NCBI RefSeq assembly: GCF_009914755.1
Contig: NC_060929.1
Reading direction: 5' to 3' (one strand)
DNA from: the human T2T-CHM13v2.0 reference genome, Homo sapiens
DNA length: 64,000 nt
The translations under genes were made by a program, and so were the position numbers. The first letter of the stretch is position 1. Each line of letters opens with the position of its first letter. Below, in pieces: positions 5,149 through 38,352 of the stretch. The notes under the pieces were generated by a model. The model saw only the letters and a program-made list of their open reading frames with translations, had not been told where the DNA came from and did not search any database.

Positions 5149-5198
<50 letters not shown>

Positions 5199-28198: not shown

Positions 28199-28214
28199 TT
28201 ATATAATTATAATT

Positions 28215-28460
28215 ATTGCTAACATTTATTGAGCACTACTTCCTATGCACTAGGCATTGTTATAGGCATTTTAAGATACATTATTTAATCCTCACAATAA
28301 CCCAATGAAGTAGGTACTTTCATCTCTGTTTTTAAAGATGAGAGGAATCCGATGCTTAGAGAAGACCAGTGACTTGCTCCAGGTGTCACTACTAGCATCT
28401 GGCAGACCCGGGACTGGAACCCAAGGCCATCTGTGTACAAAGTTTGTAGTTCTGTTGCCT
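28215..28460 (-). mobile_element. MIR
   Basis: gctaacatttattgagcact...ttaatcctcacaataacccaatgaagtaggtac. Confidence 0.85.
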
Positions 28461-33394: not shown

Positions 33395-34085
33395 ATAGTT
33401 CTGGGTCTCAAAGAGCAGCCAACCCAATGAGGAAGGTAGGTATTTAATCTAGTAAGCACCCAAATAAATGTATATTGACTAATTATAATAATGGCTGGGA
33501 ATGAAAAAAATAAGGCACTATGGTAGCAATGAAGAAAGGAGGCCTTATTTAGAGGGAGTGGTCAGAGAAGACCCTCTCTGAGGAAATGACGTATCAGCTA
33601 AAACTGGAAGGACGAAGCAGCTAGCCTGCAGCCAGAGCTTAGTAAGCAAGGAGTGGGCCACGAGGCTGTGGGCACACAGAGACCAGATCTTGCGAGGTGA
33701 GTCTTGGTAAGGCGTTTGCTACTAAGAACAACGGGAAATGATTGGAGGGTTTGAGGCAGCAGGCTGACAAGTGCTTCATGTTTTTAGAAGATCACTCTAG
33801 CTAAAGTGTGAAGAATGGATTGGAGGTTACATGGAGCAGAGAGTGGAAGCAGGGAGACCCGGTAGGGGCTCTGTCTGTAGTGCAGGTGGGAAATGGCAGT
33901 GGCTTAGACTCACATGGTAGTACTGGGGATAGAGATAAGTGAAGAAATCTGTGAGATATCTTGGGGGAGTACAAAAAAGGACTTGCTAGCCAATCTGTTG
34001 TGTGGGGGTAGAGTAAGGAAAATCAGAAATCAAAGATGACTCTCAAGTTTCAGGCTTGAGAAGCTGGTGGGTAGTGGTGCTGTGT
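33395..34085 (-). mobile_element. L2 fragment
   Basis: gtggtcagagaagaccctctctgagg...tttagaagatcactctagct...atcaaagatgactctcaagtttcaggcttg. Confidence 0.85.
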
Positions 34086-34099
34086 GCCAGAACTGGTTT

Positions 34100-34670
34100 T
34101 GCATTCATAATTTGCAAGCCTGACAAATAGCCTTGTGAAAGTCAGGTATTGTTACTAACATCTCCCTTTACAGATTGTGTATTAGTTCGTTTTCACACTG
34201 CTGATAAAGATATACCTGAGACTGGGCAATTTACAAAACAAAGAGGCTTAATGGACTCACAGTTCCATGTGGCTGGGGAGGCCTCACAATCATGGTGGAA
34301 GGTGAAAGTCACGTCTCATATGGTGGCGGGCAAGAGAAGACAATGAGAGCCGAGTGAAAGGAGTTTCCCGTTATAAAACCATCAGATTGCGTGAGACTTA
34401 CTCACTACCATGAAAACAGTATGGAGAAAACCACCCCCATGATTCAGTTATATTCCGCTGGGTCCATCTCACAACAGGAGGCAATTATGGGAGCTACAAT
34501 TCAAGATGAGATTTGGGTAGGGACACAGCCAAACCATACCAGATGCGGAAACTCAGATAGAGCAAGTAATTTGCCCAAAGTCACACAGCTGGTGAATCGT
34601 CCAGCCAGGATTTGAACGCTTGTCTATGAGCAAAGTTCATGTATGCTCTTTCCTTCACCTTCACTGCCTC
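34100..34670 (-). mobile_element. MIR split by THE1 LTR
   Basis: ccctttacagat|LTR|gatgcggaaactcagatagagcaagtaatttgcccaaagtcacacagct. Confidence 0.8.
34178..34541 (-). mobile_element. THE1 solo LTR (MaLR)
   Basis: tgtattagttcgttttcacactgctgataaaga...gagatttgggtagggacacagccaaaccatacca; degenerate 5-bp TSD gattg/gatgc. Confidence 0.95.
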
Positions 34671-34720
34671 ATGACTGTGTTTTCTCATTCACTGACTTCC
34701 AGTCTCTATGGCTCCTGTCT

Positions 34721-35311
<591 letters not shown>

Positions 35312-35389
35312 ATATGGCTCCTATCTCTATTAGTCTATAGTAAGTGTTTTCCTTGGCTCATCACTCCGCTGAAAGTGTTTCTTTTTTGG

Positions 35390-35980
<591 letters not shown>

Positions 35981-36084
35981 ACTCCTACTCACTGGGGAAG
36001 TTGAGATACAGACTTGCCCAGTTTAATCTAAGAGATCAGGAGCCTGGATTAGTGGTCTTATTGGCATGCTACAGGGAACTGGGC

Positions 36085-36275
36085 CCAAGAGCTCTGAGTT
36101 AACTTTGGACTTTTGTCACTAACTAGTTCTGTGACGTGTGGAAGTTTCCATTACCTCTCTGAACCTTAGTTTCCCTCTTAGCTCAAAACAGAGGAAAGTG
36201 AAACCTGGCACTCTGACCTCATGGGGTGAGAATAAAATCCAAATATATGTGAAACAGCTTGCAAAGGTATAAGAA
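36085..36275 (+). mobile_element. MIR
   Basis: ttgtcactaactagttctgtgac...ttacctctctgaaccttagtttcc. Confidence 0.7.
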
Positions 36276-36459
36276 CTATACACATGGATGGTATCTCATT
36301 TGCCTCAAAATAACAAAGTTTCTCTTCAGCATGAAGATTCTGGAGCCTAGTAGATCTAAGGAGGCTTCGTTGTAGTACTTATCTGTTTGTTTATGTTTGG
36401 GCAAGTTGTCTTCTCTGAACTGAACTAATGAGGATAATAGCACTACTACTTTCCCAGGC

Positions 36460-36573
36460 CTCTTCTGAGGACTAAGTAACTCTAGTGATAGCAGTATATA
36501 TATATATACTGTATATATATACAGTATATATATATATACTGCTATCACTAGAGTTACTTAGTCCTCAGAAGAG
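36460..36573. repeat. Perfect 114-bp palindrome without spacer
   Basis: Checked base by base: all 57 pairs complementary, centre 36516/36517. Confidence 0.97.
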
Positions 36574-36604
<31 letters not shown>

Positions 36605-36676
36605 TGCTATCACTAGAGTTACTTTATATATATATATATATACTGCTATCACTAGAGTTACTTAGTCCTCAGAAGA

Positions 36677-36712
<36 letters not shown>

Positions 36713-36777
36713 TGCTATCACTAGAGTTACTTTATATATATATATATATATATACTGCTATCACTAGAGTTACTTAA

Positions 36778-36846
<69 letters not shown>
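36574..36846. repeat. Compound array of (TA)n tracts and four more copies of the inverted arm
   Basis: actgctatcactagagttactt starts at 36603, 36642, 36711 and 36754, separated by (TA)n; (TG)/(TA)n follows. Confidence 0.95.
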
Positions 36847-36847
<1 letters not shown>

Positions 36848-36853
36848 TTTCCA

Positions 36854-37093
36854 TTATAAAACCATCAGATTGTGTGAGACTTACTCACTACCATGAGAAC
36901 AGTATGGGGAAAACCACCCCCATGATTCAGTTATATCCCGCTGGGTCCCTCTCACAACAGGAGGGAATTATGGGAGCTACAATTCAAGATGAGATTTGGG
37001 TGGGGACACAGCCAAACCATACCAGATGGGGAAACTCAGATAGAGCAAGTAATTTGCCCAAAGTCACACATCTGGTGAATCATCCAGCCAGGA
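36854..37093 (+). repeat. Direct copy of 34371-34610 (THE1 end plus flanking MIR)
   Basis: 240 bp, 10 substitutions, no indels by hand alignment; crosses the LTR boundary. Confidence 0.97.
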
Positions 37094-37415
37094 CATATAT
37101 ATATCTACATATACATATACTATGAATGAAGCTATATATATAGTGTGTGTGTGTATATATATGTATATATGCTATATGTAGAGTATGAAGCAGTGCCTAG
37201 TGCATAGGAAGCACCTAATAAATCTTAGCCTTTTAATAATCATTAAAAAAAACCCCTCTCTTTACACACAAACACACATACCTCACATACCAATTCAACT
37301 TCTACACCAACAATTTTGGAGTTACATTATTTGGATGCATATTTTTGAAAATGTCACTAAGAATAAATATTACCTCATGCCCAACCTCAGGAGCAGCTTC
37401 TTCAAGCACAGTTAC

Positions 37416-37800
37416 CTATAAACTTTGTACCAAATAGTATGCCCCTCCAAAACCAACAGACCCTTCTTTGTAGAAGTCAAGTGGAAGCAACGCTTAGAGG
37501 TATGAATCAGTGTGTCGCTCGGTTCCATGGAGACAAATCCAAGTAGGCACTGGCAGCTGTCCGGGTCCTCAGTGAGCTGAAGCAGGCCACATGGCAAGAT
37601 AATTTTTAAAGTTTCTTAGCATCAATAAAACACCTCCTTTTTAAGAGCTCCATCTCTTAATTCAAAGTCGAAACCTTCTATTTTCCACTGCTCTGCTCCG
37701 CTGCTATTTCAGTTATTAGAACACCTGCTGTCTGAACGAGTTTGCCTCCCAAATAGCCGAATAATCAAAAGATGAGGAGACTTGCTTAAGCAGCAGGAAG
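37416..37800 (-). promoter_or_regulatory. Candidate alternative promoter / first exon or muscle-type enhancer
   Basis: Unique sequence with retained CpGs; E-boxes AACACCTGCTG (37720-37730) and CAGCTG (37554); minus-strand donor TAG|GTAACT at 37416/37415. Confidence 0.4.
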
Positions 37801-38352
37801 GAAAACTGGTGAAAGAAAGAAAGGGTTGACAGGCAGCAAGAGGAGGAGAATCCAGGAATAAATGGGACAGAAACGGAGAGAGCAAGCAGGAGGAGTCCTG
37901 GCAAGATGGCAACAGTTTAGACCAGGACAGGAAGTGGCAAGAACAGAGAAGAGACAACACCACACTCAGGAGAAGGCAGGAGAAAAGGGAAGTAAAATTG
38001 CTAAACCCTCTCACTTGAAGAATATCAGTAAGGCAGTGGATTGTGGCAGTTAAAGCCATGACTTCGGACACATAGAACAGGGACTGAAAACTGTGCATAC
38101 AAAGTATGCACTCAGTAAATGCTTTATAATAGATTATGAGCATCAGAATGGGGGTAAAACACTCCCTCCCCAAATAAATACTGAAGGTAGAGAAAACAGC
38201 TAAAAAAAAAAAAAAACCCTCCATATCCTATGGTCTTTTTTTTTCTCTTTTTTGGGGAGACAATGTTAGTTTTCTAATTTGCCATCTTCTTCAAACGCTG
38301 CTTTCTTCCCTTGTAGCTCTTCTACATGAAATCCAAAGATGACAGGTCCTTA

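What the first reader, a model, noticed from the sequence alone, without database searches (positions are those of the whole stretch)
36460..37180. MIR split by a compound fold-back, (TA)n and templated-capture insertion
Seen: the MIR stops near 36494 and resumes near 37175. The gap holds an inverted copy of the preceding 35 bp, four further inverted arm copies joined by (TA)n, a (TG)/(TA) tract, a 240-bp copy of DNA from 2.5 kb upstream and another TA/CA-rich tract. There is no poly-A tail, TSD or element terminus. Inference: this is a fossil of iterative repair synthesis (snap-back priming, repeated re-priming, then a template switch to a nearby locus), as described for polymerase-theta end joining and MMBIR/FoSTeS. 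TA tracts sit at every junction, so they may act as a self-complementary adaptor. If this grammar recurs genome-wide it would be a TA-anchored local copy-paste process worth describing.
Basis: partly seen in the sequence, partly recalled or inferred. Interest (0 to 1): 0.8.

Follow-up and report, generated by a model that had tools for sequence, protein, structure and literature searches.

The report
TA-repeat palindrome and local copy in MIR
An old repeat in a PPP2R2B intron is interrupted by an unstable TA microsatellite that has folded back on its own flank, multiplied that inverted flank and, much earlier, captured a 246-bp copy of nearby DNA; it is a clear example of known mutation processes rather than a new one.

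Summary
At 36460-36573 lies a perfect 114-bp palindrome: a 35-nt flank arm, a TA-rich centre, then the inverted arm. Four more inverted arms follow, joined by pure (TA)9-16 tracts in a tandem array of period 104-112 bp. Next come a (TG)n(TA)19(CA)n quasi-palindrome, a 246-bp 95%-identical copy of 34365-34610, and a TA/CA-rich tract before the old repeat resumes. The 246-bp copy spans a solo-LTR/MIR junction, so it is a true local copy.

The "one compound event" reading is disfavoured. The copy is 4.9% diverged, with changes on both lineages. The six arms show 0 substitutions in 169 nt (P about 0.016 if equally old). The array has the long-short-long-short pattern of stepwise tandem duplication.

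TA-centred palindromes with inverted unique flanks, and (GT)n/(AC)n pairs around (AT)n, are already printed as template-switch products (Loytynoja 2022, supplements). AT-rich arrays of TA tracts and short inverted spacers are common in this genome. In a small scan, 35 (TA)16 loci showed no excess over 30 (CA)16 loci.

Verdict: real, non-functional, a new member of a known kind. Orthologue and pangenome tests could not be run.

The parts
36380..36479 (-). Left half of the old dispersed repeat (MIR by recall), minus orientation
   Evidence: Collinear alignment to another repeat copy at 28199-28324 (weak, z about 2.4). The family name is recalled, not tested.
36460..36494 (+). Arm F: the 35-nt flank that served as template for all inverted arms
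   Evidence: It is continuous with the left flank.
36460..36573 (.). Perfect 114-bp palindrome, 57-nt arms, no spacer, 70% A+T
   Evidence: I1; (equals its own reverse complement; the neighbouring bases C and T do not pair); fold.
36495..36538 (.). Palindrome centre: (TA)7 ctg (TA)5 cag (TA)7, a nested 3-nt fold-back
   Evidence: parse.
36539..36777 (+). Tandem array of inverted arms. Unit 1 is 104 bp: R1, (TA)14, caR2, (TA)9. Unit 2 is 112 bp: R3, (TA)16, caR4, (TA)11. It ends in a truncated R5.
   Evidence: period 104, 2.4 copies; units identical apart from TA-run lengths; the 'ca' variant is shared by R2 and R4.
36778..36847 (.). (TG)7 tatatgtgtg (TA)19 (CA)4: compound microsatellite, quasi-palindromic
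   Evidence: I10 (41-nt arms, 83%).
36848..37093 (+). 246-bp templated copy of 34365-34610, direct orientation, 12 differences
   Evidence: D3.
34365..34610 (+). Source of the copy: the last 179 bp (window orientation) of a solo LTR plus 67 bp of the plus-strand MIR it was inserted into
   Evidence: The LTR has thousands of copies genome-wide. Only the two local copies cross the junction.
34176..34545 (-). Solo LTR (THE1/MaLR-like by recall) flanked by a CAGAT duplication inside a plus-strand MIR
   Evidence: six other copies, 81-84% identical over 362-381 nt; reading.
37094..37168 (.). TA/CA/TG-rich degenerate microsatellite tract
37169..37184 (+). R0: a 16-nt stretch at the start of the right flank that matches the first 16 nt of the inverted arm at 12 positions. 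It is an older decayed fold-back or a pre-existing quasi-palindrome.
   Evidence: 12 matches in one register, 1-7 in six others; background 4 of 125,968 positions in the window reach 12 of 16.
37170..37260 (-). Right half of the old dispersed repeat (MIR by recall)
   Evidence: 81% hit to 28218-28259, E = 4e-5; score 28.5 against shuffles at 10.4 +/- 1.7.

Best explanation
This is a non-functional mutational hotspot built in several steps around a hairpin-forming (TA)n microsatellite that arose inside an old MIR in an intron of PPP2R2B.

Step A (old, shown as a copy; mechanism inferred). A break or stalled fork in the TA/CA tract was repaired by a template jump 2.5 kb backwards. It copied 246 bp across an LTR/MIR junction and returned, as in MMBIR/FoSTeS-type or synthesis-dependent end-joining insertion. 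The 4.9% divergence places this before the African-ape radiation.

Step B (later, or kept identical by arm-to-arm correction). A nascent strand ending in (TA)n snapped back on itself, or switched to the complementary strand. It copied the 35-nt left flank in reverse complement and returned into the TA tract. Because (TA)n is its own complement, the result is a seamless spacer-less 114-bp palindrome. A weak pre-existing inverted match between the two flanks (R0) would have favoured the fold-back.

Step C. The inverted arm then lay between two TA tracts, which are direct repeats of each other. Slippage or unequal exchange duplicated arm plus tract. A 15-nt deletion with 'TA' microhomology and a T>C change made the short 'ca' arm. 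The two-arm unit was then duplicated again, and the TA runs drifted in length.

The product is a small AT-rich, cruciform-prone VNTR that is likely polymorphic.
For: - Structure and exactness of the arms.
- The arm core is unique to this locus genome-wide.
- The copy spans a junction of two different repeats: only the 2 local copies, of 40 scored hits, cover it; the other 38 end at query positions 172-187.
- Age discordance. The copy has 12 of 246 differences (95% CI 2.5-8.5%). P(12 or more) is 8e-4 at 1.6% divergence. Six arms totalling 169 nt have 0 substitutions, P = 0.016 on a star tree of the copy's age.
- The differences are not copying errors. In the LTR part, 6 of 9 differences are derived on the source lineage, judged against 6 other LTR copies. 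All 13 LTR copies that appear in both genome searches are 1-4 points closer to the insert than to the source.
- Stepwise pattern. Units 1 and 2 are identical apart from TA lengths, and the 'ca' variant is shared by R2 and R4.
- R0 quasi-palindrome.
- Strong hairpin potential.
- Published precedent. PMC9435742 supplement Fig S12B,C prints TA-rich palindromes with inverted unique flanks followed by TA, described as template-switch events involving VNTRs. Its Fig S2 legend attributes (GT)n/(AC)n pairs around (AT)n to a historical template switch. Its main text states that many VNTRs evolve by template switching but were filtered out of the analysis.
- (TA)n cruciforms cause breaks (abstracts of PMC9890227 and PMC12972899).
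Against: - No outgroup or population sequence could be examined, so the order of steps rests on divergence statistics with small counts. With the lower confidence bound of the copy's divergence, P(0 arm substitutions) rises to 0.12.
- Identical arms could reflect concerted evolution rather than youth.
- The outgroup LTR copies used were picked for similarity to the insert. That bias is only partly removed by the comparison.
- Junction microhomology is 0-2 nt and ambiguous, because the pre-insertion sequence is unknown.
- The enzymes involved are entirely inferred.
Confidence: 0.6

Rival explanations
1. One compound repair event (Pol theta-type snap-back, repeated re-priming, then a template switch to the locus 2.5 kb upstream) laid down the whole 680-bp insert at once.
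For: All parts are contiguous and joined by TA/CA tracts. Iterative templated synthesis is described for SD-MMEJ/TMEJ (PMC2943611 and PMC5728401, abstracts only).
Against: The copy is 4.9% diverged with changes on both lineages, yet 169 nt of arms are unchanged (P = 0.016). The periodic long/short units sharing the 'ca' variant fit tandem duplication. The pure TA runs look recent. A 246-bp insert copied from 2.5 kb away is long for Pol theta-templated inserts (recalled).
Confidence: 0.12
2. The steps are as in the best explanation, but the fold-back is as old as or older than the copy. The arms stay identical through concerted evolution: hairpin-templated correction and tandem-array turnover.
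For: R0 looks like an older, decayed inverted arm. Template switching is reported to maintain perfect hairpin stems (PMC8794818, abstract only).
Against: There is no direct evidence. The perfect symmetry of the TA run lengths in the palindrome centre (7/5/7) suggests a recent event.
Confidence: 0.15
3. The 246-bp piece was copied from RNA rather than DNA. Source and target lie in the same PPP2R2B intron, so it could be a reverse-transcribed piece of intronic pre-mRNA captured at a break.
For: Source and target are both within one intron (hub annotation). There is no poly-A or target-site duplication, which fits break capture rather than retrotransposition.
Against: Nothing in the sequence tells RNA from DNA templating. 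A nearby DNA template in cis is the simpler reading.
Confidence: 0.07
4. Assembly or polishing artefact in a TA-rich, hairpin-forming stretch of T2T-CHM13.
For: Palindromes and TA runs are hard for sequencing. Only one assembly was available.
Against: The structure has an orderly internal logic: nested arms, a shared variant, and a diverged copy with CpG decay. Comparable palindromes are reported from other human data.
Confidence: 0.03
5. A functional hairpin, either an intronic hairpin RNA or new miRNA precursor, or a regulatory cruciform.
For: Template switching can create miRNA hairpins (PMC10710096, abstract only). The hairpin is strong.
Against: No Rfam family reaches threshold in 34000-38000. 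No RefSeq functional element overlaps (hub table). The centre is pure TA and the stem is far longer than a miRNA precursor.
Confidence: 0.03

Closest known systems
Short-range template-switch mutations (TSM) at TA-rich VNTR palindromes (Loytynoja & Goldman 2017; Loytynoja 2022, Supplemental Figs S2 and S12B,C)
   Same: Unique flank / TA-rich centre / inverted flank / more TA. Reverse-complementary (GT)n and (AC)n runs around (AT)n. The proposed cause is a strand switch during replication.
   Different: Here the inverted arm was also amplified into a 104-112-bp tandem array, and a 246-bp templated insertion sits in the same tract. The published scans removed low-complexity loci, so such loci were shown only as examples.
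Palindromic AT-rich repeats (PATRR11, 17, 22, 8)
   Same: Near-perfect palindrome with an AT-rich centre, predicted to extrude a cruciform. Symmetry and length are polymorphic in PATRRs (PMC4940405 passages).
   Different: This one is 114 bp against about 190-600 bp (PMC1851657 abstract). It is only 70% A+T. No translocation breakpoint is known here.
AT-rich minisatellites of rare fragile sites (FRA16B, FRA10B) and the many TA-plus-short-spacer arrays in this genome
   Same: Tandem units made of TA runs and spacers that are often palindromic or mutually inverted. There are 1,538 pattern matches per strand genome-wide. Examples on chromosome 1 lie near 20.54, 118.33 and 146.89 Mb.
   Different: The arms here are 21-35 nt of unique flank rather than 6-15 nt, and there are only 2.4 copies. 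The unit sizes of FRA16B and FRA10B (about 33 and 42 bp) are recalled, not checked.
Synthesis-dependent MMEJ / Pol theta end joining with snap-back templated inserts
   Same: The snap-back geometry gives inverted copies of the adjacent flank (abstracts).
   Different: A single event is disfavoured here. The arm copies and the 246-bp insert are longer than typical (recalled).
MMBIR/FoSTeS templated insertions
   Same: A segment is copied from a nearby template in cis and inserted without transposon hallmarks (PMC8421209 abstract).
   Different: Junction microhomology cannot be established because the pre-insertion sequence is unknown.

Membership tests
Template-switch mutation (four-point model) | Inverted copy of immediately adjacent sequence in cis | tested here: met
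   57-nt perfect arms and five exact inverted arms.
Template-switch mutation (four-point model) | An ancestral or alternative allele lacking the inverted copy | not testable with these tools
   No primate or other human assemblies were available.
PATRR | Near-perfect palindrome with an AT-rich centre | tested here: met
PATRR | Length of several hundred bp (about 190-600) | tested here: not met
   114 bp against the sizes in the PMC1851657 abstract.
PATRR | Site of palindrome-mediated translocation | not tested
   No breakpoint data were searched for this locus.
AT-rich minisatellite / VNTR | Head-to-tail array of an AT-rich unit | tested here: met
   Period 104, 2.4 copies. 77% A+T over 36460-36847.
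AT-rich minisatellite / VNTR | Copy-number variation among individuals | not testable with these tools
   Only one genome is held.
Single-event Pol theta / SD-MMEJ templated insertion | All templated pieces are of one age | tested here: not met
   12 of 246 differences in the copy against 0 of 169 in the arms, P = 0.016.
Single-event Pol theta / SD-MMEJ templated insertion | Microhomology at each junction | tested here: inconclusive
   A 2-nt 'TA' is possible at the short-arm junction. It is 0-2 nt at the ends of the 246-bp copy. The ancestral target is unknown.
MMBIR/FoSTeS templated insertion | The inserted segment matches a nearby locus and is not bounded by element ends | tested here: met
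   It spans an LTR/MIR junction, with 2 of 40 genome hits full length.
Retrotransposon or DNA-transposon insertion | Poly-A tail, target-site duplication or terminal repeats of an element | tested here: not met
   Reading of the junctions. The arm is unique to this locus.
MIR (host repeat) | Both flanks align collinearly to other copies of one dispersed family | tested here: inconclusive
   One other copy in the window supports it: strongly on the right flank, weakly on the left. No repeat library is available.

The most novel reading that the evidence does not exclude
TA microsatellites act genome-wide as self-complementary 'adaptors'. They repeatedly turn flanks into seamless palindromes, seed AT-rich VNTRs from those inverted arms, and attract templated captures. 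Published template-switch scans removed low-complexity sequence, so this class may be largely uncounted. Long-armed loci such as this one would be early stages of PATRR-like or fragile AT-rich repeats.
Probability: 0.2. Interest if true: 0.55.

Novelty: new member of a known kind. Interest (0 to 1): 0.3.

Why it matters
The locus shows in one place how a TA microsatellite can grow into a cruciform-prone palindromic VNTR, and how breaks there are patched with nearby sequence. It may be useful as a teaching example. It is also a candidate polymorphic or unstable site in a very large gene, and a seed pattern for a proper T2T/pangenome scan of low-complexity template-switch products. It does not reveal a new mechanism, and no function is indicated.

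Tried and rejected
- Rfam scan of 34000-38000: no family reached threshold.
  - Exact non-simple inverted arms of 14 nt or more within 1 kb: TA 4 of 35 (two are Alu pairs, one a MITE-like diverged inverted repeat, one is L017); CA 4 of 30 (two Alu, one MITE-like, one other).
  - Mirror-repeat control: 3 of 35 and 2 of 30.
  - Smith-Waterman self-inverted scores had similar distributions. The finding's locus scored 34, which would rank third among the TA loci.
  - Arms abutting the tract: TA 2 of 35 (L017, L020), CA 0 of 30. This is not significant.
  - No sampled locus had multiplied arms of 20 nt or more. The scan is underpowered.
- Flanking bases of the 50 listed (TA)16 tracts, counted by hand: G...C 14 observed against 13 expected from the marginals. 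There is no palindromic extension signal.
Loci for could not be cut. I did not ask again.
- A pattern of three TA tracts separated by spacers showed many AT-rich arrays with short, often palindromic spacers. Judged by eye over the listed rows only, none had long unique arms. The reversed-pattern control is uninformative for TA repeats.
- BLAST of the flanks against 280 kb of held sequence was too insensitive for MIR: 1 significant hit.
- Two papers on the evolution of the NF1 palindrome (PMC1310899, PMC2818517) are not held.

Full report
**What is there**

Reading 36200-37500 and parsing it gives the following order.

| Window coordinates | Element |
|---|---|
| up to 36494 | left flank, ending in arm F (36460-36494, 35 nt) |
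| 36495-36538 | (TA)7 ctg (TA)5 cag (TA)7 |
| 36539-36573 | R1, the exact reverse complement of F |
| next | (TA)14 |
| 36604-36624 | 'ca' + R2 (21 nt) |
| next | (TA)9 |
| 36643-36677 | R3 (35 nt) |
| next | (TA)16 |
| 36712-36732 | 'ca' + R4 |
| next | (TA)11 |
| 36755-36776 | R5 |
| 36778-36847 | (TG)7 tatatgtgtg (TA)19 (CA)4 |
| 36848-37093 | 246-bp copy of upstream DNA |
| 37094-37168 | degenerate TA/CA/TG tract |
| from about 37169 | right flank |

- The repeat finder reports 36460-36573 as a palindrome with 57-nt arms, 100% complementary and no spacer (I1). A script confirms that it equals its own reverse complement.
- Tandem Repeats Finder sees the arm array as period 104, 2.4 copies, 92% matches.
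- The (TG)(TA)(CA) tract is itself an 83% palindrome (I10).

**Is it more than chance, and is it a repeat family?**

- The 21-nt arm core occurs six times exactly in the 3.1-Gb assembly, all at this locus: one forward and five inverted copies.
- The six other matches at up to two mismatches are scattered singletons. The reversed-pattern control gives none.
- As single-stranded DNA, 36440-36860 folds at -103.8 kcal/mol against -45.6 +/- 3.7 for shuffles (z = -16).
- No Rfam family reaches threshold in 34000-38000.

So the arms are local copies of the flank, not members of a dispersed family.

**The host repeat**

No repeat library is available, so the name MIR rests on recall of its consensus. 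As a partial test, another dispersed-repeat copy in the window (28199-28324, opposite strand) was aligned to both flanks.

- It aligns to the left flank at 36433-36479 with score 14, against shuffles at 10.2 +/- 1.6.
- It aligns to the right flank at 37191-37250 with score 28.5, against 10.4 +/- 1.7.
- The two blocks are collinear, with 21 nt between them.

This supports the view that the two flanks were once contiguous.

**The 246-bp piece**

- It matches 34365-34610, which lies 2,483 bp upstream in the same orientation, with 12 differences.
- The source consists of the last 179 bp of a solo LTR (34176-34545, reverse orientation) plus the next 67 bp of a plus-strand MIR into which that LTR was inserted. 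A CAGAT duplication is visible at both LTR ends.
- Six other copies of the LTR align over 362-381 nt at 81-84%. It is THE1/MaLR-like by recall.
- In a whole-genome search with the insert, 40 of 3,766 candidates were scored. Only the two local copies cover all 246 nt; the other 38 stop at query positions 172-187, which is the LTR end.

The piece is therefore a true segmental copy that crosses a junction between two unrelated repeats. It has no poly-A, target-site duplication or element terminus.

**Ages**

The copy:

- Twelve of 246 sites differ, which is 4.9% (95% CI 2.5-8.5%).
- Twelve or more differences would be very unlikely at 1.2% divergence (P = 6e-5) or 1.6% (P = 8e-4). They are compatible with 3.4-6.5%.
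- Using recalled primate divergence levels, this places the copy before the African-ape radiation, roughly between the orangutan and macaque splits.

The differences are not copying errors:

- Nine of the differences lie in the LTR part. Against six other LTR copies, six are derived on the source lineage and about three on the insert, two of those at CpG sites.
- Those outgroup copies had been picked for similarity to the insert, so I repeated the genome search with the source as query.
- Thirteen LTR copies appear in both lists. All 13 are 1-4 percentage points closer to the insert than to the source.
- The best non-local hits are 88-92% identical for the insert and 85-89% for the source.

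So both lineages have aged.

The arms:

- F, R1, R2, R3, R4 and R5 total 169 nt and show no substitution.
- If all were as old as the copy, 4.1 substitutions would be expected on a star tree, P(0) = 0.016.
- With the lower bound of the copy's divergence, P rises to 0.12.

The arm array is therefore either clearly younger than the copy or kept uniform by concerted evolution. Either way it is not a frozen record of a single event that also laid down the copy.

**Internal logic of the array**

- With the TA runs removed, unit 1 (104 bp) and unit 2 (112 bp) are identical: long arm, then 'ca' + short arm. A truncated arm follows.
- The 'ca' is a T>C change in the last TA unit. R2 and R4 share it, so it predates the duplication of the two-arm unit.
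- The short arm can be derived from the long one by a 15-nt deletion bounded by 'TA'.
- The palindrome centre, cag (TA)7 ctg (TA)5 cag (TA)7 ctg, is most simply explained as a fold-back about the middle of (TA)5 of a strand that already carried a 3-nt inverted 'ctg'.

Once an inverted arm lies between two TA tracts, those tracts are direct repeats of each other. Ordinary slippage or unequal exchange will then duplicate arm plus tract. This part is inference.

**An extra, decayed arm**

- The right flank begins (37169-37184) with 16 nt that match the start of the inverted arm at 12 positions in one register. Six neighbouring registers give 1-7 matches.
- In the rest of the window, only 4 of 125,968 positions on both strands reach 12 of 16.
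- So the whole 680-bp insert lies between a weak inverted pair. This is either an older decayed fold-back or a quasi-palindrome already present in the MIR. By recall, the MIR consensus has the palindromic hexamer ATGCAT at this point.
- A comparison with the one other repeat copy available does not settle which side is native.

Quasi-palindromes are the classical substrate for template-switch 'correction'. That model (Ripley 1982) I saw only as an entry in the reference list of PMC9435742.

**Is the 'grammar' general?**

(a) Matched sample.

| Measure | (TA)16 loci | (CA)16 loci |
|---|---|---|
| Loci examined | 35 (of 50 places listed, 256 in the genome) | 30 |
| Exact non-simple inverted arms of 14 nt or more within 1 kb | 4 of 35 | 4 of 30 |
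| Mirror-repeat control | 3 of 35 | 2 of 30 |
| Inverted arm abutting the tract | 2 of 35 (L017, 15-24 nt; L020, 12 nt) | 0 of 30 |

- In both sets most hits are Alu pairs or MITE-like inverted repeats.
- Local-alignment scores of each region against its own reverse complement are similarly distributed.
- None of the 35 TA loci shows multiplied unique arms of 20 nt or more.
- The sample is small.

(b) Flanking bases. Among the 50 listed (TA)16 tracts, G...C flanks number 14 against 13 expected from the marginals. This is a hand count.

(c) Pattern search. A pattern of three TA tracts separated by 16-42-nt spacers has 1,538 matches per strand. A stricter form has 593 and 634.

- By eye, over the listed rows only, most are AT-rich minisatellites whose 6-15-nt spacers are tandemly repeated and often palindromic or mutually inverted.
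- Examples lie on chromosome 1 near 20.54, 118.33, 146.89, 172.05 and 189.16 Mb, and on chromosome 2 near 39.99 Mb.
- None of the listed rows has long unique arms.

The short-arm version of the grammar is therefore common and corresponds to a known class. The finding sits at the long-arm end of that class.

**What is in print**

- Template-switch mutations that create inverted copies and hairpins are established: PMC5453318, PMC7954356, PMC8794818 and PMC10710096 (listings and abstract openings only).
- In PMC9435742 I read passages stating that there is strong evidence of many VNTRs evolving through template switching, but that low-complexity hits were removed from the analysis.
- I read all of its supplementary Fig S12. 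Panels B and C show two human loci with unique flank, TA-rich centre, inverted flank, then more TA.
- I read the legend of its Fig S2. It attributes reverse-complementary (GT)n and (AC)n runs around (AT)n to a historical template switch.
- PATRR properties come from passages of PMC4940405 and the abstract of PMC1851657.
- Snap-back SD-MMEJ and MMBIR insertions come from abstracts only.
- TA-repeat cruciforms and breakage come from abstracts only.
- Two papers on the evolution of the NF1 palindrome were not held.

I found no paper on this particular locus, but I ran no search aimed at it.

**Verdict**

The single-event story is disfavoured, and the claimed new process is largely a known one.

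The locus is a well-preserved, probably unstable, non-functional example: a new member of a known kind. The order of events and any polymorphism remain open, because no primate or other human assemblies could be consulted.

Noticed in passing
window 34176-34545: Solo LTR (THE1/MaLR-like by recall) in reverse orientation, inserted into a plus-strand MIR, with a CAGAT duplication at both ends. It has thousands of relatives genome-wide.
   Followed up: partly
window 34707-34730 and 35313-35336; 35557-35573 and 35881-35897: Two pairs of short direct repeats (D12 and D13) bracket the masked insertions at 34710-35307 and 35561-35887. They are probably target-site duplications of retroelement insertions lying between the source and the copy. 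If so, the template jump may have been shorter than 2.5 kb when it happened.
   Followed up: no
window 5152-5191: The only other long TA tract in the window, (TA)20. It has no inverted flank copy.
   Followed up: partly
L071 (G000 C3:89,686,009-89,689,042), locus positions about 1100-1545: A 26-bp-period quasi-palindromic TA/CA/TG minisatellite of about 400 bp directly abuts a (TG)n(TA)16(CA)n tract.
   Followed up: partly
L017 (G000 C1:161,894,081-161,897,114), around locus positions 1260-1500: A 15-24-nt unique flank next to a (TG)n tract reappears inverted next to (CA)n, abutting the (TA)16 tract. It is a small analogue of the finding.
   Followed up: partly
L009 (G000 C1:76,113,983-76,117,016): The (TA)16 tract sits at the centre of diverged inverted repeats of about 170 nt, probably a palindromic MITE-like element. 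This is a confounder for any scan for TA-centred palindromes.
   Followed up: no
window 37120-37132 versus 37183-37193: A short stretch ('tatgaatgaagc') inside the right-hand TA-rich tract resembles the right flank ('gtatgaagcag'). It may be a small direct duplication of the flank or a chance match.
   Followed up: no
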